Positions 12,469 to 31,504 of a stretch of 64,000 nucleotides of DNA are shown piece by piece. The stretch lies in the IMG/VR virus record IMGVR_UViG_3300045988_132703; one strand, given 5' to 3'. This DNA comes from a virus. Below the pieces are notes generated by a model that saw only the letters and a list, made by a program, of their open reading frames with translations, was not told where the DNA came from and did not search any database. Positions within the stretch are counted from its first letter, which is position 1; each line of letters starts with the position of its first letter. Made by a program: the position numbers and the translations under genes.

Positions 12469-12778
12469 CTTGCCAAACATAATTTCTTATGCCATTTAAA
12501 ATGTTTTGGTCTGGACTATACCATCATCTTTAAGAAAAGATGTCCTTATTATAGTCTCTGAACGTCTATCTCAATTTAATATATTTTCTATAAAAAATAT
12601 ACTATTGGATATTTCGCTGCGTTTGATTATCCAATCTTAAACGATTTTACCTTACCGTTCCCATTACTGAACGCCGCAAATTAATTACTTAATTTGTTTG
12701 GTTGTTTAAGCTCTAAGGAGTTCCCCGCAATTTAAAGGATTTTCGATATACATCACTGTATAAAGTCGCTTAATTTTA
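12469..12778 (-). mobile_element. Group I intron (family A), ORF-less, in dnaE
   Basis: The 5' exon ends in U and the intron ends in G. Core motifs are TTAAATTGCGGGGA (P4-like), GCGTTCAGTAATGGG and ATAGTC. Stops occur in all frames. Confidence 0.7.
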
Positions 12779-13427
12779 ACGAATAACCCATCTGCTTTTC
12801 GGCTTGAGACCAAATCCAATCAATAATGTCTTTAGAAGTTCCTAATTCTTTTCCCCGTTGATACAAATTTTCTTTTAAAGATGCAATTTCTTTAAATTTC
12901 TTTTTAGCAACAGTTTTACGGACTTTATTTGCTTCATCAACATTATAATTTGTAAATGGTAACATAACCGCGCGCATAAGAGATTCTTGGCTGTCCAATA
13001 CACCACCAAATTCCTTCATAAACTCATAAAGTTTATCTTTTTCTTCAGTAGTAGCATTAAGATTATAAATATCTCTTTTTAATTTTTCTGGATGCTCTTG
13101 GTATTCAACAAATTCCTCAACAGGAGTTTTTTGTCCTTTTTCTGGCATTAATCGCATCAAACTATTTGACTGCGCAAGAGTAAGCAAATTTTTTGGTTTA
13201 ATCTGTTTCGCTGTTTGCAATCCAACAGGAGTATCAAATTGGAACAAACTAATAATTTTATTGTCGCCAACAAGCTTCCACATTTCCGGATTATCGTAGT
13301 CAATAACATCTGGATTTAGATATTTCATATAAGTAGCTTTTAAAGAACCTTGCCACTCCATTAAACCATCATTAAGAAGTAATTCCATTGTGGTACGGAT
13401 TCTATCCAAACCATCAATAGTTAAGAA
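12779..13427 (-). CDS. dnaE: DnaE-type polymerase, exon 3
   Basis: The junction gives IKYD|FLTIDGLDRI (consensus KFDFLGL). Confidence 0.75.
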
Positions 13428-13852
13428 CCTTTATACCCTCGGTTTCCCGATATTTATTAGGGGAGTAGACTATCTCTTCATCCTATTGCTAGGAGTCTCG
13501 CACTTCGATTTAAAGGGATTTCACCTACCAGAGTTTCACTGGCCCTACTTCTATTGACATTTATAAAGCTGTCTAAAGAATAGTCGTTACACCTTCTAGA
13601 TTAATCTAGCTTGGCACGGTATTACCATATTATTTAACTTAGGCTTTTACCGTTAGCCGCAAAGCGACACCCTTAAATAAGGTTCACGAGATTATAATAT
13701 ATTATTACTAATATATCAGACATTTGATATATTTAGAAATTTTAGCATATCTTGAGTTTTTCTTTCTAGAGTAATTTCTGAGTTAGTTGAAAGTAAATAC
13801 TAAACAATATTTTTAGTTCTAATATACTAATCATCCATAAATATATACCTTT
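13428..13852 (-). mobile_element. Group I intron (family C), ORF-less, in dnaE
   Basis: Its ends are near-identical to intron 14339..15125: GAAGAGATAGTCTACTCCCCTAATAAATATCGGGAAACCGAGGGTA at the 3' side and GGCTAACGGT...GGTAATACCGTGCC at the 5' side. Confidence 0.7.
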
Positions 13853-14338
13853 ATCGTACTTAATATGACCCGCGTACTCTTCATCATGTAATTCCCATTG
13901 GCTACATTTTACTCCTTTAGGACTCTTCATCGTCGCGCCAAGTTCTGTAAATTTATCGTTTGTTAAGATAATACCAGAAGCATGAACTCCACGGCGACTA
14001 ATCAATCCCTCAATGTTTTTTGCAACATTCCAAATATCTTCATGTTTGCCCATTTCTGCAATAAATTGCGGAATAGGCTGATACCCCTTTTCTTCGTCTC
14101 CGTAATAACATTGCTGTAAACTTCTAACAAAACCGCGGTCAATAGGAATTAAAGAACTAAGAAAACTTCCTAATTCTGGTTCGTATCCTAAACCACGTGC
14201 AGCAGTTTGCAATGCTGCTTTTGAAGTTTCAGTGCCAAAAGTTGCGACACTCGTTAATTCTCCGCCAATGGACTCAAAGTAACGACGAACTGCTTCAATA
14301 AATCTTTCACGCTTGGATGCCTGAGAATCAATATCGAC
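13853..14338 (-). CDS. dnaE: DnaE-type polymerase, exon 2
   Basis: Begins VDIDSQASKRERF. The junction RAELAD|VDIDS matches the palm PDxDxD motif. Confidence 0.8.
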
Positions 14339-15125
14339 CTTTAATTACCCTCGGTTTCCCGATATTTATTAGGGGAATAGACTATCTCTTCATCCTATTT
14401 CTAGGAGTCCTGCGCTTCGAACGGTGATTAAATCTGCTCTACTACTTAGTCGTTACACCACATCTATCCTATAATCTTTACAATGTCCATATTTTCTTAA
14501 AGAAGATATGCTACAGTCAAAATATTCTTTAGCATATTCTGCGGCAGCTTTCTTATTGTCGAAGATTTTTATAATAGAGTTAGTTGAAATTTGAACTAAT
14601 GCACATTTTATCTAATTGCGTGCTGGTCCCATTGTAGAATAAGAATCATATAAATTATATTTTCTATCACACCATTCAAGATTTTCTAATTTATTATTGC
14701 TTCTATTCTTATCTTTATGATTTACCTCTGGTAAATTATCTGGATTAGGAATAAAAGCTTCTGCAACAAGTCTGTGAACAGCGTAATGTTTTGCTATATT
14801 ATTTTCACATAAAGAAATATATTGATAACCAGCCATATTTGTCCAAGCAGACATTTCTTTAGGCTTTTTATATTTATATGAAATAACTCTTCCATCATCG
14901 GTTATCCCATAATCTTCGTGATTTTTAATTCTTTTTTCCATTAATTTTCACCTCTAATCAAGAAGTAAAAATTTATCAACTTTCCTCTAAGAAAAATAGA
15001 TACGGCACGGTATTATCTTTTCGGATTTCCACCGTTAGCCATTTTAAATGACACGCGATAATCAATCGCTTCACAGGATTTTCTATTATGATATTACTAT
15101 CATAAGCGGACTATGATATAAGTTA
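14339..15125 (-). mobile_element. Group I intron (family C) carrying an HNH homing endonuclease, in dnaE
   Basis: U before the 5' splice site and G at the 3' end. It shares its core with 13428..13852, and the ORF sits in a peripheral loop. Confidence 0.75.
14453..14941 (-). CDS. HNH homing endonuclease (intron-encoded)
   Basis: VHRLVAEAFIPNP...VNHKDKNRSNNKLENLEW HNH motif. Continues through the TAG at 14612 to the TAA at 14453. Confidence 0.8.
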
Positions 15126-16512
15126 ATCCGCGAGTTCTGCACGTCCTCTTGAACAAAATCTCCAATAAGGAAGTGCAGTTGGACTTTTCAATGGATCGCG
15201 CTGAATAATGTCCATCAAATATGCGCTTAACATTGAACCTACTGAACCACGCCAAGGACCGACTAAAGAGTCACCATCTGTCCAAGCAATATCAATAACT
15301 TTACGAACGGTGATAAAATAAGCACTTAAACGCTCTTGAATTTTTTCGGATACAATCCACATTTCTTGAAGTTCTTCTTCAAGTCTATCAAGATGAATTT
15401 TGTCTAAACAATCTAATTCAAGCCCTTTTTGAATAATACTATAAAGAAAGAATTTATCTTCTTCATATTCACTATTCAAATACTTATTTAAATATTCTCG
15501 TTCGCCAATGATTTTTTGTGGCTCACAGTGGATTAAATGCCAATCAAGAGGAATACGAGGAACAATTTGCTTATATGCCAAATCATATTCTTCAATCATT
15601 GAACAAACTTTATTACTATTTTCAAAAATTTGAGTAATAAAATCGTCATCAAAATAATTAAGTTTCTCTCGAATTTCCTCTGCACTCATCATATAAGTGT
15701 AAGCGTAGAAATCATCAGTCTCTCTATCTCCATCGCCAGAATTAAGAAAACTCTTATGAATTTCTCTATCCTCTTGACGTAAATAGTGGCTATCAGTCGT
15801 AACTGTGATATTAAAATGATTCTTTTTTGCAAACTGCGCAGCTAAAGTATTAAAAGTAACTTGTTCTTTACTCAGCCCAGGCTGAATTTCAATAAAGAAA
15901 TTTTCTTTACCAAAAATTTGTTCACACCAATGGCAAAAATTTAATGCTTTTTCATACTGTTGATTTAAAATCAAATAATCGAAAAAACTACCTAAGCAAG
16001 CTGTTTGTGCAACCACATGTCCAGAATTATTTCCGATAATTTCTTCAATGTCTGAATAATAAGTTGGAACACGTTCCATAAATTGATAAAAACTTCTATT
16101 CCAAGCTCTTGAAGATAATTCTCGAAGTTGTTTATTTCCTATTTTATCTTTTGCTAATAAAATAAAGTGCCAAAATTTATCTTCACCTTTAATAAAGTTT
16201 TTTGCACTTAAATTATCACGGCAAAGATAAATCTCATTTCCTAATACAAGTTTAAAATTTTTAACTTGATTAGCCCATTTATCATTTGGTTCTGTCTCTA
16301 AAATCTTTTTCGCCTTTGATTTTAAAGATTTCATGTATTTTAAAGCTTTGATATAACCGGAAACACTCTCGTGGTCAGTGATTGCTACACCCGTTAAACC
16401 CAATTCCAAAGCATAATCAATTAATTTATCTTCTTTGATAATACAATCGAGCATACGAATGTTAGACCCACTAAGAATAATGGGTATGATTATGTCCACT
16501 AAAATATCCCAT
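15126..16512 (-). CDS. dnaE: DnaE-type polymerase, exon 1 (PHP domain), with a recoding site near codon 13
   Basis: The RBS AGGTGA serves ATG 16512 (frame A: MGYFSGHNHTHYS-TAG). The rest of the PHP domain (NIRMLDCII...AITDHES) is in the +1 frame (track ORF 15123..16499). Confidence 0.75.
16464..16476 (-). other. Candidate translational bypass / +1 frameshift site (UCU UAG UGG G UCU)
   Basis: Take-off UCU (16476-74) is followed by UAG, and a matching landing UCU (16466-64) lies 10 nt downstream. The hop gives HNHTHYS|NIRMLD. Confidence 0.45.
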
Positions 16513-16584
16513 TATTTCTTAGAATCACCTCTCTTTCTAATGCTTTCAATAAAGTAATTTGATATTATTTCCATTTCTATAAAT

Positions 16585-16593
16585 ATTATATCA
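16585..16593 (-). promoter_or_regulatory. Extended -10 (TGATATAAT) upstream of dnaE
   Basis: The minus strand reads TGTGATATAATATTTATAGAAAT, sharing the conserved box downstream of the -10 seen at other promoters here. The -35 is weak. Confidence 0.35.
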
Positions 16594-16609
16594 CATTTTT
16601 GCGCAGAAA

Positions 16610-18127
16610 TCAAAACATTGCCCTACCATTTTCAAGCTCATAATCTTCTATGATAACTTGAGGAGTATAATTACCCATAAATTGATTTAAATTCATTTTA
16701 CCATAAACGGTAATTGCACCAATAGAATAAGACTGAACTTTTTGTGCAAAATCGGCATCTTTAAATTTAACAAAAGCAATCCCATCTTTTTCAATTTTAA
16801 CGGAATCTTTATTTTTGCCCATGATAAACACATCATTTTGGGTAAAAAGAATTTTATTGACAATAACTTTAGGTTCTTCAACACCTTTGCCATAAACATT
16901 TTTTATGGCGTCCAAATCAACACAAATAGATTCAATATCGCCGCAGAAATTTCCATCAAATTCAAAATCTACAAGATAGCTGTTTTCACCCAAATTGATA
17001 TTAGCCAATTTCTTATTACAGTATTTAATAAATTTATTCAAATTCTTTTCTGCAATCCCAATACCTGCCGCGCTTTCATGTCCTTCAGCATATTCGACCA
17101 ATCCACTCTTAGTACAAAAATCCTTAAAATTTGCAAGAGGACTATTTGAATTAACCCTAAAAGAACCTTTAAATACATTATCATCTGCTAAGCGAATTAC
17201 AATAGCAGGACGGTTATACATTTGACAAAGCTTCATCGCAATTAAGCCAGTTAAATTAGGATTGACATATCTTGATTCGTCGTCATCAAGGGCAACTAAA
17301 AGAACTTTGTTTTCATCTAAACATTCTTTTTCAATTTTCCCACAAAGAAATTGGACACTTTGGTCAATCATTTTATTTTGATGATTACGTGCATTAGTGG
17401 CGATTCGTGCGGCTTTATCTGCAATGACTTCTGTATCGCCAGGCTTTGCCCCACGTTTGGTAGATGGTTCAGTATCATTCGGACCGCTAATAAATGCTTT
17501 AAATAAAGTTTCTTTTTCTTCCATTGTCCCTACACGAATTACCGCATTAACGAGTGGCGCGATGAAAAAAGAAACATCTGTAGGAGTAATATCATCAATA
17601 TTTCCTATCGAGAAAGATTGTTTTAAAGCAAATCGAGTCAAACCATAATTCTTTAAATTTGTTAAACCTTGACTGATAATATATCTTGTCTCAAGATTTC
17701 TTAAATCCATCATGTCACCAACGATACCCATTGCTGCGAGATCAAGGAAATTGTCAGCGTAATTATAACCATATTTTATATCAAAATATTTAATAAATTT
17801 ATAGACAACTCCAGCACCAGATAAATCTCGGTTAGGATATTTCCCTAATTGATTATTAATAACAATCGCATTTTCGCTTTCTGCTTCACACAAGTGATGG
17901 TCAAGAATAAGAATATCAAAACCTTGTTCTTTTAATATTTTATGTTCTTCATATTGATTAGAACCTGCATCTGGAATAACAATTAACTTCGCTTCATGAG
18001 GAACTTTATCTAACTCAACACCATGCTATTTCCCAGAGTGCATAGACCAAAGAATTTGAATATTCGGTTTAATCAATTTTAAATAATTATAAAGAATAGC
18101 AGAAGATGTAACTCCATCCTGATCAGA
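16610..18127 (-). CDS. recJ: RecJ-like DHH phosphoesterase / ssDNA exonuclease, exon 2
   Basis: SDQDGVTSSAIL, ILILDHH (DHH) and GHESAAG motifs. 1 in-frame TAG at 18028-26. Confidence 0.7.
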
Positions 18128-18449
18128 CATTACTACCCCGACTTTTGTCGTATTTATTCAGCAATTGCTGAAATTTATTATACTTTCTATTTAAATAAAA
18201 AGTATAAATTTTAAGGGATTAGACTATACAATCTCTTTCGAGTCGGTATTATAGTCGTTGAACGTTTCTCTTATTTATTACTAGACTTAGAGACTTCGCT
18301 GCGTTTGATTACCCAATCTTCAATGTTTTTACCTTACCGTTCCCGTTACTGAACGCCAATATAAAATTTCTTATATATCTTGGTAATTGAAGTTCTAAGG
18401 GACTCCCCGCAATTTAACCGATTTAACGTGGACTCAGACTTTTAGGTTA
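18128..18449 (-). mobile_element. Group I intron (family A), ORF-less, in the recJ-like gene
   Basis: Splits the DxDxDG motif (VVD|SDQDG). U/G boundary rule holds. TTAAATTGCGGGGAGTCCCTTAG core. Confidence 0.7.
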
Positions 18450-18671
18450 ATCCACTACGTCATAAATAATTGAATTAGCATCTAAATGCTTCTTTAAAAG
18501 TTCCGCGCCAGCATCTATATTCTTCAAAAGAAGTGGCGAATAGAGAACTTCTTTCGAAGGTTTCAAATATTGAATCATTTCATCGTGATTCAATCCTCTT
18601 GCACGCAATAAAGTTTCGACATAAGATTCATTTGGCAAATGATTAATTTTACTATTTAATACATATTTCAT
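18450..18671 (-). CDS. recJ: RecJ-like protein, exon 1
   Basis: The track ORF ends ...IIYDVVD just before the intron. Confidence 0.7.
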
Positions 18672-19735
18672 TTAACAAAAACTCTCCTATTGAATAGTTT
18701 TTCAAATATCTCTACTCCACTATCAAAAGGAGCAGCTTTATATTCCAAAATTCCATCTGTATCAAAAATAAAAGAAAAATTAGCATAGTTCTTATATTTT
18801 TGGCACATAGAATAAAGTTTATTAAAATATACTTTTTGAGATATTTTATCATGATTCATACGGTCATAAGCCACAATTATATCAGTAACACCTAATTTAA
18901 CTAATTGCTTTACTAAAAATTTATTAAACTTATCACCGCAAGTTGCGACAACGCAATTATTATCTCCATACCAACCATCAGCAATTAAAGAACTTTTTTC
19001 ACCTTCAGCTAAAATTGCTAAATGATTCTTTTGGATAGCTTGTTTATTAAAATTTAATCCATAAAGATTATACATTAAAGGATGAGTATAAAATTTTCCT
19101 TGAATATATGCCGGCATATATTTACCACCATGATCAATTTTATATTCATCCAAATTTCTAACTCTAATCCCAATTAAATCTCCATCAATATTGTAATGAG
19201 GAATAATAATTTGATTATTAGCTTCAGAAAAAAGTATATGATATTTTTTCATACTCTTTATTGTAATTCCATCATTTATCCATTCGATAGGATAGAGTTC
19301 ATGAAAACAAGCAAGAACTTTACTATCATATATTTTATAAACAGGTTCTACATTGCCATTTACATATCGGTCACTAATGCTTTTATAAGAATCCGCGCTT
19401 TCAACTTTTTCAAAAAATACATCGGAATATTTACTAATAACATTAAAAACTGATGCGAAATCATTTGGCAAATTGCGTAGTTCAAGCATCTTTTTAACTA
19501 ACTCATAAATATCAAAGCTACCGCAATGAGTATAACAATGAAATAAATGAGTGTTAAAATAATAATATAATTTTTTACTACCGTCCTCTTGCTCAAGATT
19601 ATGGCAGATAGTTGGTAAAATCAGACAACCATTTGAAGTATTTTCTTCATAATTCAAATCTGGAATAAAATGTTGGATGATTTTTATTATATCATCTGGT
19701 TCAAGTTCCTCTTTTATTTTATCATAATCAATCAT
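18668..19735 (-). CDS. dnaG: DNA primase (DnaG-type Zn finger + Toprim)
   Basis: CHN...HCYTHCG zinc motif, AEGEKS Toprim Glu, VAYDRM. No TAG. ATGA overlaps with its neighbours. Confidence 0.7.
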   Translation of the reverse strand: MIDYDKIKEELEPDDIIKIIQHFIPDLNYEENTSNGCLILPTICHNLEQEDGSKKLYYYFNTHLFHCYTHCGSFDIYELVKKMLELRNLPNDFASVFNVISKYSDVFFEKVESADSYKSISDRYVNGNVEPVYKIYDSKVLACFHELYPIEWINDGITIKSMKKYHILFSEANNQIIIPHYNIDGDLIGIRVRNLDEYKIDHGGKYMPAYIQGKFYTHPLMYNLYGLNFNKQAIQKNHLAILAEGEKSSLIADGWYGDNNCVVATCGDKFNKFLVKQLVKLGVTDIIVAYDRMNHDKISQKVYFNKLYSMCQKYKNYANFSFIFDTDGILEYKAAPFDSGVEIFEKLFNRRVFVK

Positions 19736-20424
19736 AATAAACGAGAACTCACTTTCTTAATTTTAGGTTTCTTTTGAAAATCTATTTCGTTTTCAATATA
19801 AGTTGAACTTTCTGCGGAAGTAATAGTTAAAGGGCTGTTAAAAGGAGGCAATTCTTCTTTTGGCTCTTTAAAATCTTCTCTTGTTGCAACCACTTCTTCA
19901 TTCACTTCCATATTTTCGTTTTCTTGCTCTTCATTGCCTAAACCAATTTCAGGAGTTAATTCAGTTTCATTAGATTCTTCTACTGAATTTTTAAGTTTTT
20001 CAGTATTAACAAAATAATCAGTTTTAAATTTAATTTCTTTAAAATCTTTTATTTCTTCATAATCACCAGTCGTGATAAGAATATCTTTTTCGCGGCAAGT
20101 ACCCAAATCAAGTATTGTCCAAATTTTTACTTGATTATACCTACTACGACGATTCTTATAAACATCAATAACATGAGTAGGCATTGGCAAACCAAGAGAT
20201 TCAATTAATGGAGAAATAGTTGCTTTCTCTTCATCACTAATTCTAACCATGATACAACCAACATCAGCTTTATCTGCCACGGCTTTTGAAGAACGAATAA
20301 AACTTTGATCACGCACTCCTCGACCATTTTTAAAATCGCCACTTAACTGAGTTGAACTTGACATAAAAATATGAAGTTCAGTAGCTAAATCTTTTAAAGC
20401 AGTTGATAGCAAGAAAAGTTGAAC
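19732..20424 (-). CDS. dnaB: Replicative helicase DnaB-like, exon 2
   Basis: The junction LRED|VQLFLLSTALKDLATEL matches the DnaB SRxLKxLAKEL region. Confidence 0.7.
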   Translation of the reverse strand, partial: VQLFLLSTALKDLATELHIFMSSSTQLSGDFKNGRGVRDQSFIRSSKAVADKADVGCIMVRISDEEKATISPLIESLGLPMPTHVIDVYKNRRSRYNQVKIWTILDLGTCREKDILITTGDYEEIKDFKEIKFKTDYFVNTEKLKNSVEESNETELTPEIGLGNEEQENENMEVNEEVVATREDFKEPKEELPPFNSPLTITSAESSTYIENEIDFQKKPKIKKVSSRLL

Positions 20425-20663
20425 CGTTTAATCCAATGTTTCCATTGGCACTGACTATCTCTTAACTGTATTAAAACAGCTATACCCATTTCGATTAGCG
20501 TATCAATAGTTAATCTACTTCCTCTTGACAAGGAATAGTCGATACAGGATTTTATTCCCACGGGATTGCCCACAACTTTGCTTGTTTGGGTTTCCCCGTT
20601 AGCCATTTACATGACCCCGCTGATTAACGGAAAAGGTATATAAGAGGACATTCGTTTACACAT
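20425..20663 (-). mobile_element. Group I intron (family B), ORF-less, in dnaB
   Basis: Shares GGCTAACGGGGAAACC, CCCGTGGGAAT, CCTGTATCGACTAT and GATAGTCAGTGCC blocks with introns 27535..27861 and 29381..29612. Confidence 0.65.
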
Positions 20664-21758
20664 ATCCTCGCGCAGATTATTTGATTTAAATTCAGTCAAA
20701 AGTCCTGGACTTGAAAAAATATAATCATAAAAAACATACTCTATCTAATCAACTTGCTTATGATTTCTTACACAAGCTTCAATTTGATTAATAGACGGGT
20801 CTGGAATTTTATCCAAAATAAAATTATCGTTAAAACATTCAATTACATCAAGTGCTTCATCAATAATTTTTTCTTCGAGAAAATTACATTCCGCATTTAA
20901 AATTTTATCTTCATTAACACCAGATACATTTGCCAATAGCATTGTTTGGACTTCATCTCTATCCAACTCTGTTGTAATAAATAAAATTTTATTATTTAAT
21001 CCAGTATCAACCCAACATTCTTTATGCCAATCGTAATATTTAGGGATTGCTAATCTACAAGCATCTCCTACCGCAAGACGTGTTTTGCCTACGCCACTTC
21101 CTGCACTTCGAATATAATATTTACCTAATCTTGCGCCAGATACAACTGTATTATAAATAGAACCAGATAAAGGTTGCCCAATTTCTGGTTTCTTTTTTAA
21201 AGATTGTACTAACTCGCGCAAACCAACAGAAGCACCGGCGGAAGTATTCAAATCACTGGTATTATATTCTTTTTCTACTATTGATAAACGTTTTTTAACT
21301 TCATCAAAAATTGTAGAAATATCCGCCTGCTCAAAACGTTCTTGAGTTTCTTTGTAATTTGCAGCTAAAGGATTATCGCAATAAAAATAACTTATATCGA
21401 AGCCGCTCTTTTTAAGAGAACGGAGCAAAGAGTATTTTTTTAAACGATTATAATAATAATCAAAAGTATCTAGATTACTTAATCCTTCGCAGTCTTTAAT
21501 ATATTCAAGTCCATTGCGCTTTTCATATTCACTTTTTATTTCTTGGCGCTCTTGAAAGAAATTATCTAAATCGACAACACTAATCGTTCTCGCGCCAGAA
21601 GCATAAAAATTCTGAATTGCTTGATAAATATACCTATTCAACAAATCATCAAAATCTGTAAAATTTATATCGTATCTATCTGCTTGAGAAAGGATTGTCG
21701 TGTTTTTCATTAAGCATCCAATAACTTGCATCATTGAATTCTTATCAGACAATGGCAT
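20664..21758 (-). CDS. dnaB: DnaB-like helicase, exon 1
   Basis: Walker A GSGVGKTR. Reads through the TAG at 20747-45 into IEYVFYDYI (Walker B region). Confidence 0.75.
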
Positions 21759-22641: not shown

Positions 22642-22651
22642 AGTAATCTAT

Positions 22652-23704: not shown

Positions 23705-23713
23705 TAAAATTTC

Positions 23714-25124: not shown

Positions 25125-25153
25125 ATTATAGCATAAACATTATTGAAAGTCAA
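25125..25153 (-). promoter_or_regulatory. Consensus promoter
   Basis: Minus strand reads TTGACT, 17-nt spacer, TATAAT, then ATTTATAGAAAATC. A second TGCTATAAT box lies at 25235-43. Confidence 0.6.
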
Positions 25154-25259
25154 TTATTTAATAGCTTTTATTTTCAAAATTTAATTTTGAATAAATTTAA
25201 TATTTAATTTTCTATCTCTTAACTTTCTATAAATATTATAGCACATCGCGCGGTAAAAA

Positions 25260-25544
25260 TCAAGTAACTGATTTGTCAAGTTCCTCAATAAATTTTGTGA
25301 CTAGAGGAATTGTTAAATCAACTTTTTCCTTTTGAGTATTAAGGACGCGCAGACGATGTTCCATAATCATTTTTAATTGTTTTTCATTATAATCAGAAAT
25401 ATCATCATTGATAAGTTTATCCATCAAACTTTTATATTCTTCTATTGTATTACGAATCGTTTCTTTTGGACTATCTTTCAAGCCAGTATCTTTTGCGCTC
25501 TCAAGAAAGTTTTCTAAGTCTCGAATAGTAGTTTCAATAGACAT
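25260..25544 (-). CDS. Small hypothetical protein
   Basis: Track ORF with its own promoter upstream. Confidence 0.45.
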   Translation of the reverse strand: MSIETTIRDLENFLESAKDTGLKDSPKETIRNTIEEYKSLMDKLINDDISDYNEKQLKMIMEHRLRVLNTQKEKVDLTIPLVTKFIEELDKSVT

Positions 25545-25614
25545 AGTTAAAAGACCAAAGTTGTCTTTAATACACTATTTCATCGGAAACACCTCTGTTT
25601 GATTTTCTATAATT

Positions 25615-25660
25615 AGTATAACATACAAAACAAAAAAAGTCAAGGTAATGACACCTTGAC
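25615..25660 (-). promoter_or_regulatory. Promoter whose -35 lies in the 3' arm of a terminator hairpin
   Basis: Minus strand reads GTCAAGGT-GTCATT-ACCTTGAC followed by a U-run. TTGACT, 17-nt spacer, TATACT. Confidence 0.55.
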
Positions 25661-25668
25661 TTAAATAT

Positions 25669-27534
25669 TTATTCGACAATTAATCCGGTTACATATTGCC
25701 CATCTTTAAGATTAATAGATTTTACGCCAACCGTTGCACGACTAGTAGTAGGAATTTCATTCAAAGAAATTTTTATAATTGCTCCTGTACTAGCAACAGA
25801 AACAGTTTTTGAATCTTCGCGCACGGGTGCAAAGCCAGCTAATTTATCCCCATCATTTAGCTTATGAATAATTGCTCCTTTTGCTGCGCGGGAAGTAACT
25901 GAAAATTCATCTAAATCAGTCTTTTTAACTTGTCCTGCTTCAGTTACGGAGATAAGCTCCTTAGCATCTTTTCTAATGACACAAGCGTCACAAACTTCAT
26001 CACCAGGGCGCAGAGTAATTCCACGGACACCGATAGTATTTCTACCTTGAGTATTAATTTCAGTTAATGGGAAAATAACGACATAGCCGTTTTTGGTAGT
26101 GATCGCGAGATTATCTTTATTATTCACAATCATTACTCTTTTAATAAAATCACCATCAGTTAATTTAATCGCAGAAACGCCTTTAATACGCTTAATATTA
26201 TATTCTCTTAAAAGAGTCTTTTTAACAGTTCCCTTTTGAGTAACAAAAAGGACTTCTTCTCCTTGAGATTTATCTGTATCGCTGACAATATAAGTAATTG
26301 TCTCGTCAGGCGCGAGTTCAAGGATTGTACTAATTGGAGTTCTGCAATCAAGAGTGAGATTACTTAGTGCAAGATTGTATACTTTACCAAGAGAACTAAA
26401 AAGTAAAAGATTATTTAGATTAGAATCTTTTACCGTTTGAATAATTTGCTCATTATTGCCTAACTTAACTTTCATACCTCTGCCGCGACGTGCAGTGATA
26501 AGAGTAGTATCTTCATAAGCGTAAAGAGTATTTAAATTAGTTAAATGAACAACCATTTGTTTCTTTTCTATTGGCTCATCGGTCTCTTCATTAATGGTTA
26601 AATTCATAATTTGAGTGCGACGTTCGTCACCAAACTTTGATGCAACATCCTGCCAACCTTTAATTAATTGTTTATCAAATTCTTCTTCATTATCAAGAAT
26701 ATATCTTAATCCATCAATTTTTGCAGTAAGTTCTTCAGCTTCTTTTTCAAATTTCTCAACTTCCATGTGCGCTAAGCGAGAAAGTTTAATATCAAGAATT
26801 GCTTTAGCTTGAATTTCATCAAGTAAAAAGTTAGATTGCAAATTTTTATTTGCCTCTGCCGTTGAAGAAGATTTTTTGATTACTTCAATAACTTCTTCGA
26901 TTCGTGCAAGCGCAATTAAAATGCCTTCAACAATATGAAGTCTTGCTTCTGCTTTTGCTAAATCATATTCATAACCACGACGATAAACTACTTTCTCATG
27001 GTCAATATGAGCTTGAAGCAATTCTCTCCATCCAAATACTCTTGGGAAACGGCCATTATCAAGCATCGTCATATTAATGCTAAAATGATGCTGTAAAGAT
27101 GTTTCTTTATAAAGAATCTGAAGCACTTTAGAAACATTGGCTTTTTTAGTAAGATAAATTTTAATATTAGGAGTAGAACCTGTCAAATCATTATAGCGCT
27201 CAATACCAGGACAAAGTCCTTCATTTAAAATTCTATCAAGCTCTCCACGAATTGTTCCAGTATAAACGCTATAAGGGATTTCTTTAACAATTAAACAATT
27301 TTCACTCTCGTCATACTCAATAACAGAGCGGAGTTTGCAAGCTTTACCAACACCATTCTTAATACTTTCTTTTACTTCGTCAGCATTAAGTAAAATTGCT
27401 CCAGTGGCGAAATCTGGCGCGCAATAAATTTCATCAAAATCGCAGTCTGGATTTTGAAGCAAAGTAATTAAAGCGTTATTTACATCTTTAATATTAAATT
27501 GAGGACAACTAGAGCTTGCGGCGACCATGCCGCT
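25669..27534 (-). CDS. Type IIA topoisomerase subunit A (GyrA/ParC-like), exon 3
   Basis: The junction SGIG|SGMVAAS matches SGIAVGMAT. The 3' splice site is uncertain by a few nt. Confidence 0.75.
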   Translation of the reverse strand, partial: SGMVAASSSCPQFNIKDVNNALITLLQNPDCDFDEIYCAPDFATGAILLNADEVKESIKNGVGKACKLRSVIEYDESENCLIVKEIPYSVYTGTIRGELDRILNEGLCPGIERYNDLTGSTPNIKIYLTKKANVSKVLQILYKETSLQHHFSINMTMLDNGRFPRVFGWRELLQAHIDHEKVVYRRGYEYDLAKAEARLHIVEGILIALARIEEVIEVIKKSSSTAEANKNLQSNFLLDEIQAKAILDIKLSRLAHMEVEKFEKEAEELTAKIDGLRYILDNEEEFDKQLIKGWQDVASKFGDERRTQIMNLTINEETDEPIEKKQMVVHLTNLNTLYAYEDTTLITARRGRGMKVKLGNNEQIIQTVKDSNLNNLLLFSSLGKVYNLALSNLTLDCRTPISTILELAPDETITYIVSDTDKSQGEEVLFVTQKGTVKKTLLREYNIKRIKGVSAIKLTDGDFIKRVMIVNNKDNLAITTKNGYVVIFPLTEINTQGRNTIGVRGITLRPGDEVCDACVIRKDAKELISVTEAGQVKKTDLDEFSVTSRAAKGAIIHKLNDGDKLAGFAPVREDSKTVSVASTGAIIKISLNEIPTTSRATVGVKSINLKDGQYVTGLIVE

Positions 27535-27861
27535 CCACCATTTCGGGTGGCACTGACTATCTTTTACTTTCTATAAATAGAAAGGACACCATTTCAGACT
27601 GTGTACCAATAACAGCCTTACTCCCCCGATTCGGGGATAGTCGATACAGGATTTATTTTAATATGTCTATATCTTCGACCGCAATATATATCATTAAAAT
27701 ATTTCCCACGGGATTGCCTTCTAATTGTAAAATGCTATTCCAATTCCAAAACTTTAATTTTTAAATTAAATTTGGCATTACAATCGTTCAGGTTTCCCCG
27801 TTAGCCACATTAAGTGACCCCGCTGGTAAGCGGTAAAGTGTTACACAGGCAATTCTTAATT
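27535..27861 (-). mobile_element. Group I intron (family B), ORF-less, in topoisomerase A
   Basis: Carries the family B blocks plus an AT-rich insertion. Confidence 0.65.
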
Positions 27862-28149
27862 ACCAATTCCACTAGTGCCATTGACAATATTAAAATAGCC
27901 CTTTCCAGTTAAAACGGCAGGATATTGTTCTGTGTCATCGTAATTATCTCGCCATTCTTTAATGGTATTTTTTTCAATATCTTTGAATAGATATTCAGCG
28001 AGAGGGGACAAACGTGCAGAAGTATAACGAGGAGCAGACCAGTTTCCGCTTTCTGCGAGAGTACCGTAAGCGCCATCTACTTCAACCAAAGGATAGCGCA
28101 TAGAGAATGGTTGCCCCGCACGCATAATAACTCCAACACAAGATGAGTC
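27862..28149 (-). CDS. Topoisomerase subunit A, exon 2
   Basis: DSSCVGVIMRAGQPFSMRYPLVEVDG matches GDSAVYDTIVRMAQPFSLRY. Confidence 0.75.
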
Positions 28150-28378
28150 CAAAATGTTATCCTAAAAGCTTTTTATCTTTTAGTTCTTACAATTTCTTGT
28201 AAGTTCAGCATATCTTTTTAGCTCGCGCTATCGGGGCCTCGTGGAGAGATTATATCTTTTCACTCTCTATGCGTTGCGGCTGGCTATATTAAATATAGCC
28301 TTCACCTCTGATTAGCTTGACTTAAAGTTTTAGCCTTCCAGATTTTTTCCCCAATTTAACCACGGCAATTCAATCTTT
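28150..28378 (-). mobile_element. Group I intron (singleton family E), ORF-less
   Basis: Splits HPHG|D (here YIHG|DSS). Contains GGTTAAATTGGGGAAAA and AAGATATAATC core-like elements. U/G boundaries hold. Confidence 0.55.
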
Positions 28379-28588
28379 ACCGTGGATATACATTCTCATT
28401 GCTGAGCCTACTGCTTTCAAAGTCTTTTTAAAAGGCTTATCAGCAGTAAATTTATCTGTTTTCATACAGTAGAAAATTTGCCGAGCGGACGGTTTCAAAA
28501 AATCTCGCGCATCCACGAGAGCGCGAGACTGCAAAACCGCACCAGAATATTGAGCAAAACTTTCTTCAATAATCGGTGTTAGTTCCAT
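28379..28588 (-). CDS. Topoisomerase subunit A, exon 1
   Basis: N-terminal GyrA-like region ending ...RMYIHG. Confidence 0.7.
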
Positions 28589-28589
28589 A

Positions 28590-28976
28590 TTACTCCTTTA
28601 TTTCTGAAAAGTCAATTTTACTAAATACAAAATCTTTACGAGGTTGAACATCCTCGCCCATCAAATCATAAAGCATTTGAATAGAATCATCATCTGAGAC
28701 AAGAATATCCATTCGTTGATTCTCAGGATTAAACATAGATTCTTTTGCTTTTGCTGCACTCAATGCGCCCAAGCCTTTTTCACGACTAACATCGCCTTTA
28801 ATTTGCGCTCGAGCTTTGTTAAACTCTTCATCGCTGTAAAAATAAGTGTGTTTCTTACCATTTGTAACAATGTAAAGAGGAGAGCGTAACCAGCATAGTC
28901 TATGCTCTTGAATGAACTCAGGAGCAAGATATTGTAGTGCAGACATAATAAGCAAACCAATATGATAACCATCGGA
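28590..28976 (-). CDS. Type IIA topoisomerase subunit B (GyrB/ParE-like), exon 4
   Basis: The junction SDAD|SDGYHIGLL matches TDADVDGSHI. Confidence 0.75.
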   Translation of the reverse strand, partial: SDGYHIGLLIMSALQYLAPEFIQEHRLCWLRSPLYIVTNGKKHTYFYSDEEFNKARAQIKGDVSREKGLGALSAAKAKESMFNPENQRMDILVSDDDSIQMLYDLMGEDVQPRKDFVFSKIDFSEIKE

Positions 28977-29229
28977 CATTTATACCCTAGCTTTCGCTAT
29001 ATTTCAAGGGATTAGACTATACAATCTCAGTAGAGTCAGTATTATAGTCGTTGAACGTTTTTCCTTTTAAGGAAACTTCGCTGCGCTTGATTACCCAATC
29101 TTCAATGATATTACTGTACCGTTCCCGTTACTGAACGCCACCAAAATAATTACTTACTTGGTTTAGTTATTGAAGCTCTAAGGGACTTCCCGCAATTTAA
29201 CTGATTTAGTGCGGACTCAACTTTTGGTT
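28977..29229 (-). mobile_element. Group I intron (family A), ORF-less
   Basis: Near-identical blocks to the recJ intron, e.g. GAT|TAACC(A/T)AAAGT...GAGTCC...TTAAATTGCGGG. Confidence 0.7.
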
Positions 29230-29380
29230 AATCCGCATCCGAACAAATAGCAATTCGTCCATAACGTAGTTTAGAAGAATTGTATTTTCCGGGGATAATA
29301 TTCATCGCACTTAGGAGCAATTTAATTTCTTCATTTTCAAAAATTTTATCCTCGCTATTGGATAGGCAATTAATAATTTT
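29230..29380 (-). CDS. Topoisomerase subunit B, exon 3 (50-codon micro-exon containing a +1 frame change)
   Basis: KIINCLSNSEDKIF (frame 0) followed by ENEEIKLLLSAMNIIPGKYNSSKLRYGRIAICSDAD (+1). Together they align residue-for-residue with [27 protein letters not shown]. Confidence 0.65.
29336..29344 (-). other. Candidate +1 frameshift site AUU UUU UGA
   Basis: T6 run (29343-38 on the minus strand). The frame-0 TGA comes immediately after UUU, and tRNA-Phe can re-pair on UUU after a +1 slip. Confidence 0.45.
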
Positions 29381-29612
29381 CGCGTAATCCATTATTTCTA
29401 ATGGTGCTGACTATCTTTTAATAGAAAATTCTATTACAGCCATTTCGAACTATGTATCAATAATAGTCCTACGAGCCGATTAAGGCATCTAGTCGATACA
29501 GGTATTTTATTCCCACGGGATTGCCTTGCCTGCATAGGTTTAGGTTTCCCCGTTAGCCGCAATGAGCGACCCCACTGATAAGTGGCAAAGCTGTATTAGG
29601 GCAATTTTGTTT
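29381..29612 (-). mobile_element. Group I intron (family B), ORF-less
   Basis: Splits PL(R/K)G|K. The 3' end GGATTACGCG parallels the dnaB intron's GGATTAAACG. Confidence 0.6.
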
Positions 29613-30596
29613 ACCCCTAATGGCCAAAATTCCGTAATGCTTTTCATCTCGCGCAATGGCCATAGCTGCCGCAGCAGAATTTCCTTCTACAATTAAGAGA
29701 GTTGAATCTTGCCCAAGATATTCTGCATCAGACAATTTATCAGAAGAAAAAACTTTTCTCTTTTGATTCTTCTCAATATCTTTAGTTGCATTTAGAACAG
29801 CTGTTCTTGCTTTTTCTGCTGCTTTTTCTGCTTTTTCTTCCTTGGTAAGAAAATCTTCAATTTTCTTTTCTTCATTGGGATATTGTAAGCAGAACTTCTC
29901 AAATCCTTCGCTAAAAGCTTTACTTGCAAGACTGCGCAATTCTGGATTGTTAATCTTCGTTTTTGTTTGATTAGCGAAAGAAGGATTAACAACTTTACAA
30001 CTAACTGCATAAACCAAACCAGTTCGTGCAAGCTCGCCAGTTAAACTTTTAATTTTCTTTTGAAGAGTTTTAGTAATTGAAGTTTTTAGACCAGTGATAG
30101 GAGTACCACCTTCAGCATTAGCAACACCATTTGTGAAACAATAAAAATGTTCATTGCGCGCTTTCGTCCAAACACAAGCAATTTCAACTGAATTTGTTCC
30201 ATCGCTTAAAAAGTAAGAAATCGGATTTTCATGAACTTTATTTGCAGCTTTTTGCATAACCAAATCCATAAGACCATTTTCACTTTTATAGGTAATACTT
30301 TGTGCTGGAGAGACAGTTTCATCTCGAAGTTCAAAAGTCAATCCTTTGGTTAGAAAACTTAAATTTTCACAAGTCTTACATAAATGCTCAAATTTAATTT
30401 CAATAGGCTCAAGATTAAAGACTTGCGCATCTGGCTTATATTTTACAAAAGTACCGTTGGGCAAATTTTTATCATTATTCACTTCGGTATAATCAATCAT
30501 ATTTCCGCGTTCAAAACAAATTGAAGCTACTCGATTATCACGAACTGACACAACTGAAAATTCTTCAGATGAAAGGCAAGTAGCTTTCGCTCCAAT
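29613..30596 (-). CDS. Topoisomerase subunit B, exon 2
   Basis: IGAKATCLSS (junction GLNG|IGAK matches GLHGVGAS). Toprim EGNSAA. Confidence 0.8.
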
Positions 30597-31504
30597 CTTA
30601 AATATTCAACAAGAGTCGTTAATTCCTGCCCGCGACTTTACTCGCTGCTCATAGTTTCCTATGAGAATAGACTATATCTTTTTCAATCCCATTTCGACTC
30701 ACTTGAGTCTACTCTACTAATTATCTCTTGATAATTTATACCTAATAATTTATTCCAATCTGGACATTTATTTTCAAGAAGATATTTTTCGATAGTCGTT
30801 GAACTTTCATCTATAATATAACCAAATTCTCTCATTTTGTTAATTCTAAAAAGTATTGCTTGGCGTAGCGCTTCGTCTGCGCCGTATTTTCCAATTGAAA
30901 AACTTTTTTGTTTTTGCAATTTTCTTTTGTCATTATATCTGGTATCATTTTCAAAAGTAGACCAGCGAACCCGGATTCTTGGAGTTCCTCTAGCCCCTTT
31001 TTCTATGCTAATGCCATTAAAATTAAAAGAATTTGATTTAATTGGTTTAGAGTTCTTTTTATTTTCAGAACAGGTAACTAATCTTAAATTGGACTTTTGA
31101 TTATTTAATCCATTGCCATCTATGTGATCAACTATGATTTTAGGATTGGTTACTTTCATAATATAACGATGTGCTTTTCCATAAGTATCATGCTGAGCAT
31201 AATCAGTTCTTGAATTATGCAATTCTTTTGGTACCAAATACCAACCACTCTTAGGAAAAGTTTCATAATCCTCATCGTCTAAAAGAATCTCTTTTCCGCA
31301 TTTCATTAAAAATTTTTTCATCTATAACCTCTTTATAGGGTTATATTATAGATGCTTAGCTGCGTTAGGTTATCCAATCTTTAACGATTTTACTATACCG
31401 TTCCCGTTACTGAACGCCATTTAATTATTACTAATTAAATTTAGTTGTTAAAGCTCTAAGGAATTTCCCGCAATTAAAGATTTTTTAGAACAGCTATGAA
31501 GTCA
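30597..31504 (-). mobile_element. Group I intron (family A) carrying an HNH-AP2 endonuclease
   Basis: Family A 5' core, ORF, then an AAGATATAGTCTA 3' core. U/G boundaries hold. Confidence 0.7.
30683..31321 (-). CDS. HNH endonuclease with AP2-like DNA-binding domain (intron-encoded)
   Basis: VDHIDGNGLNNQKSNLRLVTCSENKKN, followed by an AP2-like GISIEK...RIRVRW segment. No TAG. Confidence 0.75.
   Translation of the reverse strand: MKKFLMKCGKEILLDDEDYETFPKSGWYLVPKELHNSRTDYAQHDTYGKAHRYIMKVTNPKIIVDHIDGNGLNNQKSNLRLVTCSENKKNSKPIKSNSFNFNGISIEKGARGTPRIRVRWSTFENDTRYNDKRKLQKQKSFSIGKYGADEALRQAILFRINKMREFGYIIDESSTTIEKYLLENKCPDWNKLLGINYQEIISRVDSSESKWD

What the first reader, a model, noticed from the sequence alone, without database searches (positions are those of the whole stretch)
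12469..31504. The introns fall into paralogous families that have spread between unrelated genes
Family A (12469-12778 dnaE, 18128-18449 recJ, 28977-29229 and 30597-31504 topoB) shares long near-identical blocks such as GCGTTCAGTAACGGGAACGGTA and TTAAATTGCGGGGA-N-TCCCTTAGAGCTT. Family B (20425-20663 dnaB, 27535-27861 topoA, 29381-29612 topoB) shares GGCTAACGGGGAAACC, CCCGTGGGAAT, CCTGTATCGACTAT and GATAGTCAGYRCC. Family C (13428-13852, 14339-15125) and family D (32934-34169, 34293-35364) are pairs within one gene. Only some members still carry an endonuclease. This suggests ectopic transposition, by reverse splicing or illegitimate homing, followed by ORF loss within a single genome.
Basis: seen in the sequence. 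Interest (0 to 1): 0.65.

Follow-up and report, generated by a model that had tools for sequence, protein, structure and literature searches.

The report
Mobile group I intron families in a phage
Twelve self-splicing introns interrupt six replication genes of a gut-type phage and do form related families, but comparison with sister phages shows that most were picked up one by one from a shared pool of mobile introns, not copied around inside this one genome.

Summary
Window 11-36 kb, minus strand, carries 12 group I introns in dnaE, recJ, dnaB, topoA, topoB and PIN-PhoH. They fall into families A (4), B (3), C (2), D (2) and a singleton X. Within-family alignment scores are 54-263, against 19±2.6 for shuffled controls. 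The shared blocks include peripheral elements, and the helices show compensatory changes. One sister phage lacks all 12 introns and confirms every junction.

Ten related genomes (87-97% exon identity) carry 0-6 of these introns, and seven introns are unique to the window. Paralogs are only 69-82% identical, while orthologous introns are 89-100% identical. At least ten of the 12 sites hold an intron of the same family in distant phages. The families are therefore old lineages of a phage-wide intron pool, gained by homing, with endonuclease loss and module swapping.

One pair fits ectopic movement. A2 (recJ) is an A3-lineage (topoB) intron in every module. It sits at a look-alike site (GTGGAT|TCTGAT vs GCGGAT|TCCGAT) with a matching one-base change in the guide sequence.

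ORF loss is confirmed: A1, X and B2 have endonuclease-bearing orthologs in sister phages. The phage also reads TAG as sense.

The parts
12469..12778 (-). Intron A1 in dnaE (after codon 836, phase 1), 310 nt, no ORF
   Evidence: Rfam gpI 42.9 bits, E 6e-8. The junction restores GYS|FSIIHTIAYS. It is precisely absent in 6 sister contigs. In 3 others it is 1133-1135 nt with a LAGLIDADG ORF, and the 146661 copy is 99.7% identical apart from an 825-nt deletion between ATAGAAA-like repeats.
13428..13852 (-). Intron C1 in dnaE (after codon 620), 425 nt, no intact ORF
   Evidence: Rfam gpI 38.2 bits, E 1.5e-6. SPbeta YorL residues 628|629 are contiguous across it. It is absent from all sister phages, which instead carry an unrelated 304- or 1189-nt intron 15 nt upstream. 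Its 3' 82 nt is 91% identical to C2. I found no convincing P1 or guide sequence.
14339..15125 (-). Intron C2 in dnaE (after codon 458, catalytic D-x-D motif), 787 nt, with an HNH ORF at 14453-14941 (one in-frame TAG)
   Evidence: YorL residues 468|469 are contiguous across it. P1 pairs GCGGAT with GTCCGC. HNH_3 E 1e-9. It is 99% identical in 3 sister contigs and absent in 6.
18128..18449 (-). Intron A2 in recJ (after codon 74, DHH D-x-D motif), 322 nt, no ORF
   Evidence: Rfam gpI 44.2 bits. P1 pairs GTGGAT with GTCCAC. It is absent from all 9 sister contigs. Its closest relatives in every module are the topoB A3 orthologs.
20425..20663 (-). Intron B1 in dnaB (after codon 365), 239 nt, no ORF
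   Evidence: P1 pairs GAGGAT with GTCCTC. It is absent from all 8 sister contigs. The family B consensus structure shows covariation. The same site holds B-type introns in L009 and L097.
27526..27861 (-). Intron B2 in topoA (gyrA-like, after codon 166), 336 nt, no ORF
   Evidence: The corrected 3' end comes from the GyrA alignment and from intron-less sister alleles. Orthologs carry an intact GIY-YIG ORF (1017 nt) or a truncated one (685 nt).
28150..28378 (-). Intron X in topoA (after codon 70, HPHG|D motif), 229 nt, no ORF, in no family
   Evidence: P1 pairs CACGGT with GCCGTG. Weak Rfam hit of 23.7 bits. Contig 146661 has a 1076-nt ortholog with a LAGLIDADG ORF, 99% identical in the shared parts. 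X-type introns occupy the same site in L030, L101, L102, L120 and L123.
28977..29230 (-). Intron A3 in topoB (gyrB-like, after codon 491, Toprim D-x-D motif), 254 nt, no ORF
   Evidence: Rfam gpI 42.5 bits. P1 pairs GCGGAT with GTCCGC. 256-257-nt orthologs, 89-90% identical, occur in 146661, 135559, L218 and L219. Five sister contigs instead carry an unrelated 1033-nt GIY-YIG intron 6 nt downstream.
29381..29612 (-). Intron B3 in topoB (after codon 441, Toprim region, ILAIRG|K), 232 nt, no ORF
   Evidence: Rfam gpI 36.3 bits. P1 pairs GGGGT with GCCCT. It is absent from all sister genomes. B-type introns with ORFs occupy the same site in L020, L065 and L120.
30597..31504 (-). Intron A4 in topoB (after codon 113, GLNG|IGA), 908 nt, with an HNH+AP2 ORF at 30683-31321
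   Evidence: P1 pairs GAACGGT with GCTGTTC. HNH_3 E 2e-7 and AP2. It is absent from all sister genomes. Only its P3-P6 module is A-like. Its ORF resembles that of the topoB-113 intron of L101/L102.
32907..34169 (-). Intron D1 in PIN-PhoH (after codon 286), 1263 nt, with a LAGLIDADG ORF at about 32953-33903 (several in-frame TAG)
   Evidence: Rfam gpI 59.3 bits, above gathering. The corrected 3' end rests. LAGLIDADG_3. It is absent from the sister genomes. D1-type introns sit at about the same place in L119-L123.
34293..35364 (-). Intron D2 in PIN-PhoH (after codon 245, Walker A GTG|K), 1072 nt, with a LAGLIDADG ORF at 34331-35212 (one in-frame TAG)
   Evidence: Rfam gpI 56.5 bits, above gathering. 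LAGLIDADG_3 E 1e-10. It is absent from the sister genomes where the site is covered. A same-site ortholog in L134 is 72% identical over 1089 nt.
11054..16499 (-). dnaE (DNA polymerase III alpha, SPbeta YorL-like), 4 exons, 1307 aa after splicing
   Evidence: tblastn with SPbeta YorL and a Staphylococcus phage homolog. Spliced translation.
16610..18671 (-). recJ-like exonuclease (YorK-like), 2 exons, 579 aa, one in-frame TAG
19732..21758 (-). dnaB-like helicase, 2 exons, 595 aa, one in-frame TAG
25669..28588 (-). topoA (GyrA/ParC-like subunit), 3 exons
   Evidence: PDB phmmer gives GyrA at E 1e-85. Spliced frame.
28590..31843 (-). topoB (GyrB/ParE-like subunit), 4 exons, 619 aa
32502..36099 (-). 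PIN-PhoH ATPase, 3 exons, with in-frame TAG codons
   Evidence: PDB PhoH 3b85 at E 2e-18..

Best explanation
The region holds 12 group I introns, mostly IA-like with P5 or P7.1/7.2 extensions. They interrupt conserved catalytic motifs of six replication genes in a roughly 175-180 kb phage that reads TAG as sense and has an SPbeta-like replication module.

The families are old lineages of a large intron pool shared among related, mostly metagenomic, phages. This genome accumulated its set one intron at a time. The likely route is endonuclease-driven homing at the matching (cognate) site during mixed infections, with short flank changes that strengthen P1 pairing. This route is inferred.

After fixation the endonuclease ORFs decay by deletion between 5-8-nt direct repeats. 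This is shown for A1 and B2. Ribozyme modules are also exchanged between introns. This is shown as mosaicism: A4 is A-like only in P3-P6, C1 and C2 share only their 3' ends, and an outside dnaE intron and an outside recJ intron are 96% identical in P3-P6.

Genuine site-switching has occurred in the history of each family. The only event plausibly specific to this lineage is A2. An A3-type intron from the topoB Toprim motif D-A-D|S-D relocated to the recJ motif V-V-D|S-D. The two targets agree at 10 of 12 nt, and the guide sequences differ by the one compensating base (GTCCGC to GTCCAC). This event is inferred.
For: Presence and absence. Ten sister genomes carry 0-6 of the 12 introns, with exact empty sites. 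A2, A4, B1, B3, C1, D1 and D2 are unique to the window.

Divergence. Exons are 87-97% identical between the window and its relatives. Orthologous introns are 89-100% identical, and paralogs 69-82%.

Cognate occupancy in distant phages, where exons share 30-80% aa identity:
- recJ-74, A-type: L004, L009, L013.
- dnaE-836, A-type: L003.
- topoB-113, with the A4 endonuclease: L101, L102.
- topoB-491, A-type: L120.
- dnaB-365, B-type: L009, L097.
- topoA-166, B-type: L099, L120.
- topoB-441, B-type: L020, L065, L120.
- topoA-70, X-type: L030, L101, L102, L120, L123.
- phoH-245, D2-type: L134, 72% over 1089 nt.
- phoH at about 284, D1-type: L119-L123.

For B1, B2, B3, D1, D2 and X, the best outside match exceeds the best paralog.

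Intron-plus alleles differ from intron-minus alleles at 1-5 positions within about 10 nt of every junction, usually giving a G or C at -4 that pairs with the guide sequence.

Endonuclease decay series and repeat-flanked deletions are shown.

The module analysis places A2 with the A3 orthologs in all three modules (82-88%, 84-86%, 90-92%). It lies far from other recJ-74 introns (51-55%, 82%, 73-75%). No closer A2 relative turned up in IMG/VR, metagenome or genome scans.
Against: Outside sampling was pattern-driven and incomplete, so 'nearest relative' statements could change.

For A1, A4 and C1/C2, outside matches are no better than paralogs.

Flank differences could reflect selection for P1 pairing and not co-conversion. 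Identity profiles toward candidate donors were inconclusive, because introns sit in conserved motifs anyway.

A2 is still 18% diverged from A3, so the jump need not have happened in this genome. An unsampled recJ donor remains possible.

No splicing or endonuclease activity has been measured. C1 lacks a recognisable P1.
Confidence: 0.62

Rival explanations
1. The families arose inside this one genome by ectopic transposition (reverse splicing or illegitimate homing) from a few founders, followed by ORF loss.
For: Family members sit in different genes of one 25-kb module. Seven introns are unique to this genome. A2 and A3 are mutual best matches at look-alike targets. D1 and D2 share an identical guide sequence (TAGCTCCCTTA) and the target ending CGGGT|.
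Against: Paralogs are 18-31% diverged, while the genome differs from relatives lacking these introns by only 3-13%. At least ten of the 12 sites hold a same-family intron in distant phages. Family B and D members and intron X have closer relatives outside than inside the window. A4 and C1 are mosaics, not copies.
Confidence: 0.1
2. Homing only. Every intron, A2 included, came from a donor phage that carried it at the same site. The extra similarity of A2 to A3, and of other same-genome paralogs, reflects gene conversion between intron copies that share a genome lineage (concerted evolution).
For: recJ-74 is an established family A site in at least 5 other phages. P3-P6 modules cluster by phage lineage and not by site. 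Examples are L003 dnaE versus L009 recJ at 96%, and 146661 A1 versus A3 at 91%. The window's recJ flanks differ from all intron-less alleles at -4, +2 and +3, as expected if donor flanks came along with the intron.
Against: A2 resembles A3 in the site-proximal P1-P2 segment and in P8-P7 too, not just in the exchangeable P3-P6 module. No A2-like recJ intron above 77% identity was found in three collections. The three changed recJ flank bases equal the bases flanking A3 in sister phages (GCGGAT|TCTGAT).
Confidence: 0.22
3. The shared blocks are only generic group I core positions, so the families are an artefact of core conservation.
For: Some quoted blocks are core-proximal, for example GATAGTCAG in P7 and AAATTGCGGG in P3. 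The last 46-58 nt of C1 and C2 is 95-100% identical to introns of many unrelated phages.
Against: Between-family scores sit at the shuffled null, while within-family scores are 3-14 times higher. The family A signature lies in a P5-loop insertion absent from the Rfam core. Family B peripheral helices (P2, P2.1, P7.1/7.2, P9) align and covary.
Confidence: 0.02

Closest known systems
Staphylococcus phage Twort group I introns (three in orf142, two in nrdE; Landthaler and Shub) and the T4 td/nrdB/nrdD introns
   Same: Several related IA-type self-splicing introns occur in one phage genome. They sit in conserved motifs of DNA-metabolism genes, some with endonuclease ORFs and others ORF-less or with defunct ones. 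The nrdE introns are cited in the reference list of PMC3984707, and I-TevIII decay in PMC2790892. The rest is from my own knowledge.
   Different: This window has 12 introns in 25 kb across six genes and four families. Population data show 0-12 occupancy among near-identical genomes. The host genome reads TAG as sense, and the endonuclease ORFs themselves contain TAG codons.
[quoted passage not shown]
   Same: Metagenomic gut phages whose essential genes are heavily fragmented by group I introns and endonucleases. In the crAss-like groups this is combined with stop-codon reassignment.
   Different: This is a different phage lineage, with an SPbeta-like DnaE/RecJ/DnaB module at about 38% aa identity to SPbeta YorL. 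As far as I read them, those papers did not resolve intron families, site-by-site polymorphism or site switching.
Related rDNA group I introns at different rDNA positions, the classical circumstantial case for reverse-splicing spread (reviewed in PMC3984707)
   Same: Related introns occupy non-homologous sites whose 5' exon bases pair with the guide sequence. The A2/A3 and D1/D2 pairs fit this pattern.
   Different: The targets here are protein-coding genes of a DNA phage. Flank bases changed together with the insertion, and homologous endonucleases accompany the sub-lineage. Both observations point to DNA-level illegitimate homing more than to an RNA route.
Bastillevirinae (Herelleviridae) introns (PMC11878797) and the nrdE/nrdF introns of the SPbeta and B. 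cereus groups (PMC2248736)
   Same: Intron clades are decoupled from the type of endonuclease they carry. Several insertion sites occur per gene, and ORF-less and ORF-bearing versions coexist.
   Different: The only DNA similarity is short: a 58-nt 3' module up to 97% identical and about 70% over the cores. The host genes and phage lineage differ.

Membership tests
Group I catalytic intron (Rfam RF00028) | Covariance-model score at or above the gathering threshold of 50 bits | tested here: inconclusive
   D1 (59.3) and D2 (56.5) pass. A2, A1, A3, C1 and B3 score 36-44 bits with E 2e-8 to 6e-6. A4, X and B2 give only weak hits (23.8, 23.7 and 15.5 bits). B1 and C2 give no hit. The generic model is insensitive to these peripherally extended or ORF-split introns.
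Group I catalytic intron (Rfam RF00028) | 5' exon ends in U, paired with G of an internal guide sequence (P1); intron ends in G (omega-G) | tested here: met
   All 12 follow a T and end in G. A 4-7-bp P1 with terminal U·G is readable for 10 of them. B2 has only 3+2 bp, and C1 has no convincing P1.
Group I catalytic intron (Rfam RF00028) | Conserved P3-P8 core with paired P7 strands, supported by covariation | tested here: met
   The Rfam alignments of A3 and B3 place P3, P4, P6, P7 and P9. RNAalifold on 7 family B members gives 44 pairs, 18 with compensatory double changes, with the P4/P6 and P7 pairs invariant. Families C, D and X were not tested separately.
Group I catalytic intron (Rfam RF00028) | Precise removal restores an intact, conserved coding sequence | tested here: met
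   Spliced frames are open and match the YorL, GyrA and PhoH motifs. Sister phages carry exactly the empty sites.
Group I catalytic intron (Rfam RF00028) | Self-splicing with guanosine cofactor in vitro or in vivo | not testable with these tools
   No RNA data were available.
Mobile (homing) group I intron | Encodes a homing endonuclease (LAGLIDADG, GIY-YIG or HNH) | tested here: met
   In the window: A4 (HNH_3 + AP2), C2 (HNH_3), D1 and D2 (LAGLIDADG_3). In sister phages: A1 and X (LAGLIDADG_3) and B2 (GIY-YIG). The window's other eight introns have no ORF.
Mobile (homing) group I intron | Presence/absence polymorphism at the same site among close relatives, with flank markers linked to the intron | tested here: met
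   Occupancy matrix. Junction-proximal substitutions are linked to intron presence at every site.
Ectopic transposition by reverse splicing | Related introns at non-homologous sites whose 5' exon is complementary to the guide sequence | tested here: met
   A2/A3: targets GTGGAT and GCGGAT, guide sequences GTCCAC and GTCCGC. D1/D2: target CGGGT, identical guide sequence GCTCCC. Look-alike targets also occur between families (A3-C2 and B3-D2, 10 of 12 nt), so guide-sequence identity alone is a functional necessity.
Ectopic transposition by reverse splicing | Recipient exon flanks unchanged (no co-conversion); RNA/cDNA intermediate | tested here: inconclusive
   The window's recJ differs from all intron-less recJ alleles at -4, +2 and +3, and there it equals the flanks of A3 in sister phages. 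That fits DNA-level co-conversion, but selection for P1/P10 pairing is not excluded. An RNA intermediate cannot be tested here.

The most novel reading that the evidence does not exclude
This phage population preserves a natural, datable case of a group I intron changing genes. An A3-lineage intron moved from the Toprim D-x-D motif of a type II topoisomerase to the DHH D-x-D motif of RecJ, through target mimicry plus a single compensating guide-sequence change. Alongside this, ribozyme modules (P3-P6, 3' ends) are exchanged between co-resident introns. If so, the intron-less, ORF-plus and ORF-less alleles found in sister genomes form a ready-made system for testing reverse splicing against illegitimate endonuclease-driven homing in protein-coding genes.
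Probability: 0.4. Interest if true: 0.65.

Novelty: new member of a known kind. Interest (0 to 1): 0.45.

Why it matters
How group I introns reach new sites is a long-standing gap. The 2014 review PMC3984707 notes that there is no direct evidence for ectopic integration and that the best hints come from rDNA.

This window and its sister genomes give a site-by-site picture of gain, loss, endonuclease decay and module swapping in a phage population. They also give one concrete candidate jump (topoB to recJ) with testable targets.

In practice, the finding shows that these TAG-recoded, intron-dense phages will be badly mis-annotated by standard gene callers. Six essential genes here appear as more than 20 fragments.

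Tried and rejected
- Rfam at gathering threshold found only 2 of the 12 introns.
- Megablast against cultured phages found only a 58-nt 3' module. Distant blastn gave at most 70-72% over half of the intron length, so cultured phages cannot date the families.
- I looked for an A2 ortholog in three ways: a recJ-type guide-sequence pattern in IMG/VR (62 loci, best 75-76%), an A2/A3-specific pattern in metagenome contigs (only two sister-phage contigs carrying A3), and the same pattern in GTDB genomes (no hit).
- I tested for co-conversion tracts by binning mismatches with distance from the junction and by profiling identity toward candidate donors. Only the first 10-30 nt stand out. Because introns sit in conserved motifs, this cannot separate co-conversion from constraint.
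- Target-site similarity as proof of common descent was rejected, because cross-family pairs (A3-C2, B3-D2) are equally similar.
- I could not find a P1 for C1 by inspection.
- I did not build a covariance model.

Full report
**What the window is.** Genes between about 8 and 39 kb lie on the minus strand. The replication module has the same order as SPbeta yorI-J-K-L (dnaB, primase, recJ, dnaE), at about 38% amino-acid identity. It is followed by a two-subunit type II topoisomerase (GyrA-like, E 1e-85 to PDB) and a PIN-PhoH ATPase. No cultured phage matches at the DNA level beyond short intron pieces. The genome reads TAG as sense. Conserved genes and intron ORFs carry in-frame TAG, for example ARNIE[TAG]A where PhoH proteins have N-x-E-Q. 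Treating TAG as sense raises the longest frame from 791 to 1283 aa.

**Checking the observation.** Self-comparison recovers the same families. All 12 insertions follow an exon T and end in G, and most show a 4-7-bp P1 with a terminal U·G pair. Removing them gives open frames for dnaE, recJ, dnaB, topoB, topoA and phoH. Three boundaries needed correction:
- A3 starts at 29230 (frame).
- B2 ends at 27526 (3-aa excess against GyrA).
- D1 ends at 32907 (PhoH spacing LPG-7 aa-PY, plus a GAAA-capped P9 hairpin).

The best proof came from relatives. IMG/VR contig 3300045988_138203 is intron-less at all 12 sites, with zero-length gaps at exactly these junctions. ERZ808278 NODE-16 confirms six of them.

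**Are the families more than generic core?** Yes.
- Smith-Waterman scores within families are 54-263. Most between-family pairs sit at the shuffled null of 19±2.6.
- In the Rfam alignment, the family A signature lies inside a roughly 70-nt insertion in the P5 loop, a peripheral element.
- Family B members from the window, plus four from other phages, give a consensus fold with 44 pairs. Of these, 18 show compensatory double changes in P2, P2.1, P7.1/7.2 and P9.

The families are partly modular, however. A4 is A-like only in P3-P6. C1 and C2 share their last 82 nt (91%) and a core type but little else. D1 and D2 share the P1-P2 region, core pieces and homologous LAGLIDADG ORFs.

**Population survey.** Protein-guided scans of IMG/VR returned eight or nine sister contigs, with primase and topoB 96-98% identical at the amino-acid level. 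A metagenome scan added two more. Exon nucleotide identity to the window is 87-97%. Occupancy of the 12 sites is as follows:
- Absent from every relative: A2, A4, B1, B3, D1 and D2.
- C1: also unique to the window. The relatives' 304- or 1189-nt intron is unrelated and lies 15 nt upstream.
- A3: present without an ORF in four relatives. Five others carry an unrelated 1033-nt GIY-YIG intron 6 nt downstream.
- C2: three relatives, 99% identical.
- A1: three relatives, all with a LAGLIDADG ORF.
- X: one relative, with a LAGLIDADG ORF.
- B2: two relatives, one with an intact and one with a truncated GIY-YIG ORF.

Relatives therefore carry 0-6 of the window's introns, and the window is the most intron-rich of the set.

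**Timing.** Orthologous introns are 89-100% identical to the window's copies, and paralogs only 69-82%. A copy made inside this genome after it split from relatives that are 3-13% diverged should be far more similar than that. The duplications that created the families therefore predate this phage cluster. The presence of seven unique introns is recent.

**Where the introns came from.** Pattern scans found the family A and family B signatures in dozens of other viral contigs. Translating their flanks shows that at least ten of the window's 12 sites are also occupied, usually by the same family, in phages whose exons are only 30-80% identical in protein:
- recJ-74, dnaE-836 and topoB-491: A-type.
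- topoB-113: the A4-type endonuclease.
- dnaB-365, topoA-166 and topoB-441: B-type.
- topoA-70: X-type.
- phoH-245: D2-type (72% over 1089 nt).
- phoH at about 284: D1-type.

The same sites can host different families in different phages (dnaE-836 and topoB-491 carry B-type introns elsewhere). Family B also occupies at least seven further sites. For B1, B2, B3, D1, D2 and X, the best outside match beats the best paralog in the window. At every site, intron-plus alleles differ from intron-minus alleles at a few bases next to the junction. This typically gives a G or C at -4 that pairs with the guide sequence. At the A4 site all four such bases equal those of the distant intron-bearing allele L101. 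This is what homing at cognate sites from diverged donors predicts. Selection for P1 pairing would give a similar picture, and longer-range identity profiles were inconclusive.

**The one good case for a jump.** Splitting family A into three modules shows that A2 (recJ) is closest to the A3 orthologs (topoB) in all of them: P1-P2 at 82-88%, P3-P6 at 84-86%, and J6/7-P8-P7 at 90-92%. It is far from the recJ-74 introns of other phages (51-55%, 82%, 73-75%). The two targets are GTGGAT|TCTGAT and GCGGAT|TCCGAT, both Asp-x-Asp metal-binding motifs. The guide sequences are GTCCAC and GTCCGC. The A3 guide sequence could even pair with the recJ exon through a G·U wobble. No closer A2 relative was found in IMG/VR, metagenome or GTDB scans. 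The three bases that set the window's recJ apart from every intron-less recJ allele (-4 G, +2 C, +3 T) are the bases that flank A3 in sister phages. That favours DNA-level illegitimate homing over reverse splicing, but not decisively. Two cautions apply. A2 and A3 are still 18% apart. Equally similar targets occur between families (A3-C2 and B3-D2, 10 of 12 nt; expected frequency 0.0017 per pair), so guide-sequence identity by itself is a functional requirement.

**Module exchange.** P3-P6 modules group by phage lineage and not by site. L003 (dnaE-836) and L009 (recJ-74) are 96% identical there, but 47% and 69% in the outer modules. In contig 146661, A1 and A3 are 91% identical in this module. 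A4 couples an A-type P3-P6 to an endonuclease like that of the topoB-113 intron of L101/L102, whose ribozyme is otherwise different, and its 3' part looks similar by eye. Recombination or gene conversion between co-resident introns is the simplest reading.

**ORF loss.** This is confirmed and given a direction.
- Window A1 equals the 146661 A1 (99.7%) minus 825 nt, flanked by ATAGAAA-like repeats.
- B2 forms a series: 1017 nt (247-aa GIY-YIG), 685 nt (truncated), 336 nt (no ORF). The deletion lies between TTTTAAT repeats.
- X is 99% identical to a 1076-nt LAGLIDADG-bearing ortholog.
- The relatives' dnaE-615 intron shows the same pattern, 1189 versus 304 nt.

**Comparison with what is known.** Multiple related introns in one phage (Twort, T4), endonuclease decay (I-TevIII; PMC2790892), decoupling of ribozyme clade from nuclease type (Bastillevirinae; PMC11878797), and very high intron density in recoded gut phages (crAss-like Zeta, up to 14 per genome, PMC7886860; Jug phages, about 18.5 per genome, PMC12880540) are all documented. 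Ectopic integration remains without direct evidence (PMC3984707). The finding is thus a new, well-resolved member of a known kind. Its specific added value is the A2/A3 candidate jump and the population matrix.

**Verdict.** The 'single-genome spread' interpretation is only partly supported. Interest is moderate.

Noticed in passing
whole window; e.g. 20745-20747 (dnaB), 35365-36099 and 32502-32906 (phoH exons), 1-3852 (+ strand): TAG is used as a sense codon, probably Gln: PhoH proteins have N-x-E-Q where the window has N-I-E-TAG. Long frames contain 124 in-frame TAGs, no long frame ends in TAG under that reading, and the longest frame grows from 791 to 1283 aa. Replication genes and intron-encoded endonucleases also contain TAG. 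No suppressor tRNA(CUA) lies in the window, only tRNA-His, tRNA-Leu(CAA) and tRNA-Gln(UUG) at 63.2-63.8 kb.
   Followed up: partly
13428-13473 and 14339-14395 (3' ends of C1 and C2): The last 46-58 nt of these introns (…ACTCCCCTAATAAATATCGGGAAACCGAGGGTATAAAGG) is 95-100% identical to intron 3' ends in many unrelated phages. These include Enterococcus, Listeria, Staphylococcus and Bacillus SPbeta-like phages and IMG/VR contigs L187 and L192. The rest of the introns differs. I have no explanation for such extreme conservation of one module.
   Followed up: partly
13700-13852 (5' 150 nt of C1): C1 has an A/T-rich 5' segment of about 150 nt with only a 40-codon ORF remnant. No recognisable guide sequence pairs with the exon end TACGAT. 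Its splicing competence is uncertain.
   Followed up: partly
sister contigs L084 11141-12173 and L069 16196-16499 (equivalent to window ~28971 and ~13867): Sister phages carry different introns 6 nt downstream of the A3 site (1033 nt, GIY-YIG) and 15 nt upstream of the C1 site (304 or 1189 nt, GIY-YIG). Distinct introns therefore occupy positions a few nucleotides apart in the same conserved motifs in different genomes.
   Followed up: yes
63792-63847 (+): A sub-threshold Rfam hit to the HDV-like ribozyme of F. prausnitzii (30.2 bits against gathering 44, E 0.12) starts exactly one base after tRNA-Gln (63721-63791).
   Followed up: no
42463-43184 and 61180-61889 (+): Two stretches of about 720 nt are 60% identical. 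They are probably paralogous late genes.
   Followed up: no
L120 (IMGVR_UViG_3300045988_165556): A more distant phage (topoB exon 2 about 48% aa identical; flanking topoA/topoB exon pieces 58-78%) carries introns of the same families at five of the window's sites: phoH at about 284, topoB-441, topoB-491, topoA-70 and topoA-166. Its B3-site intron has a P9 hairpin identical to the window's B3. Phages of this type are plausible donors.
   Followed up: partly
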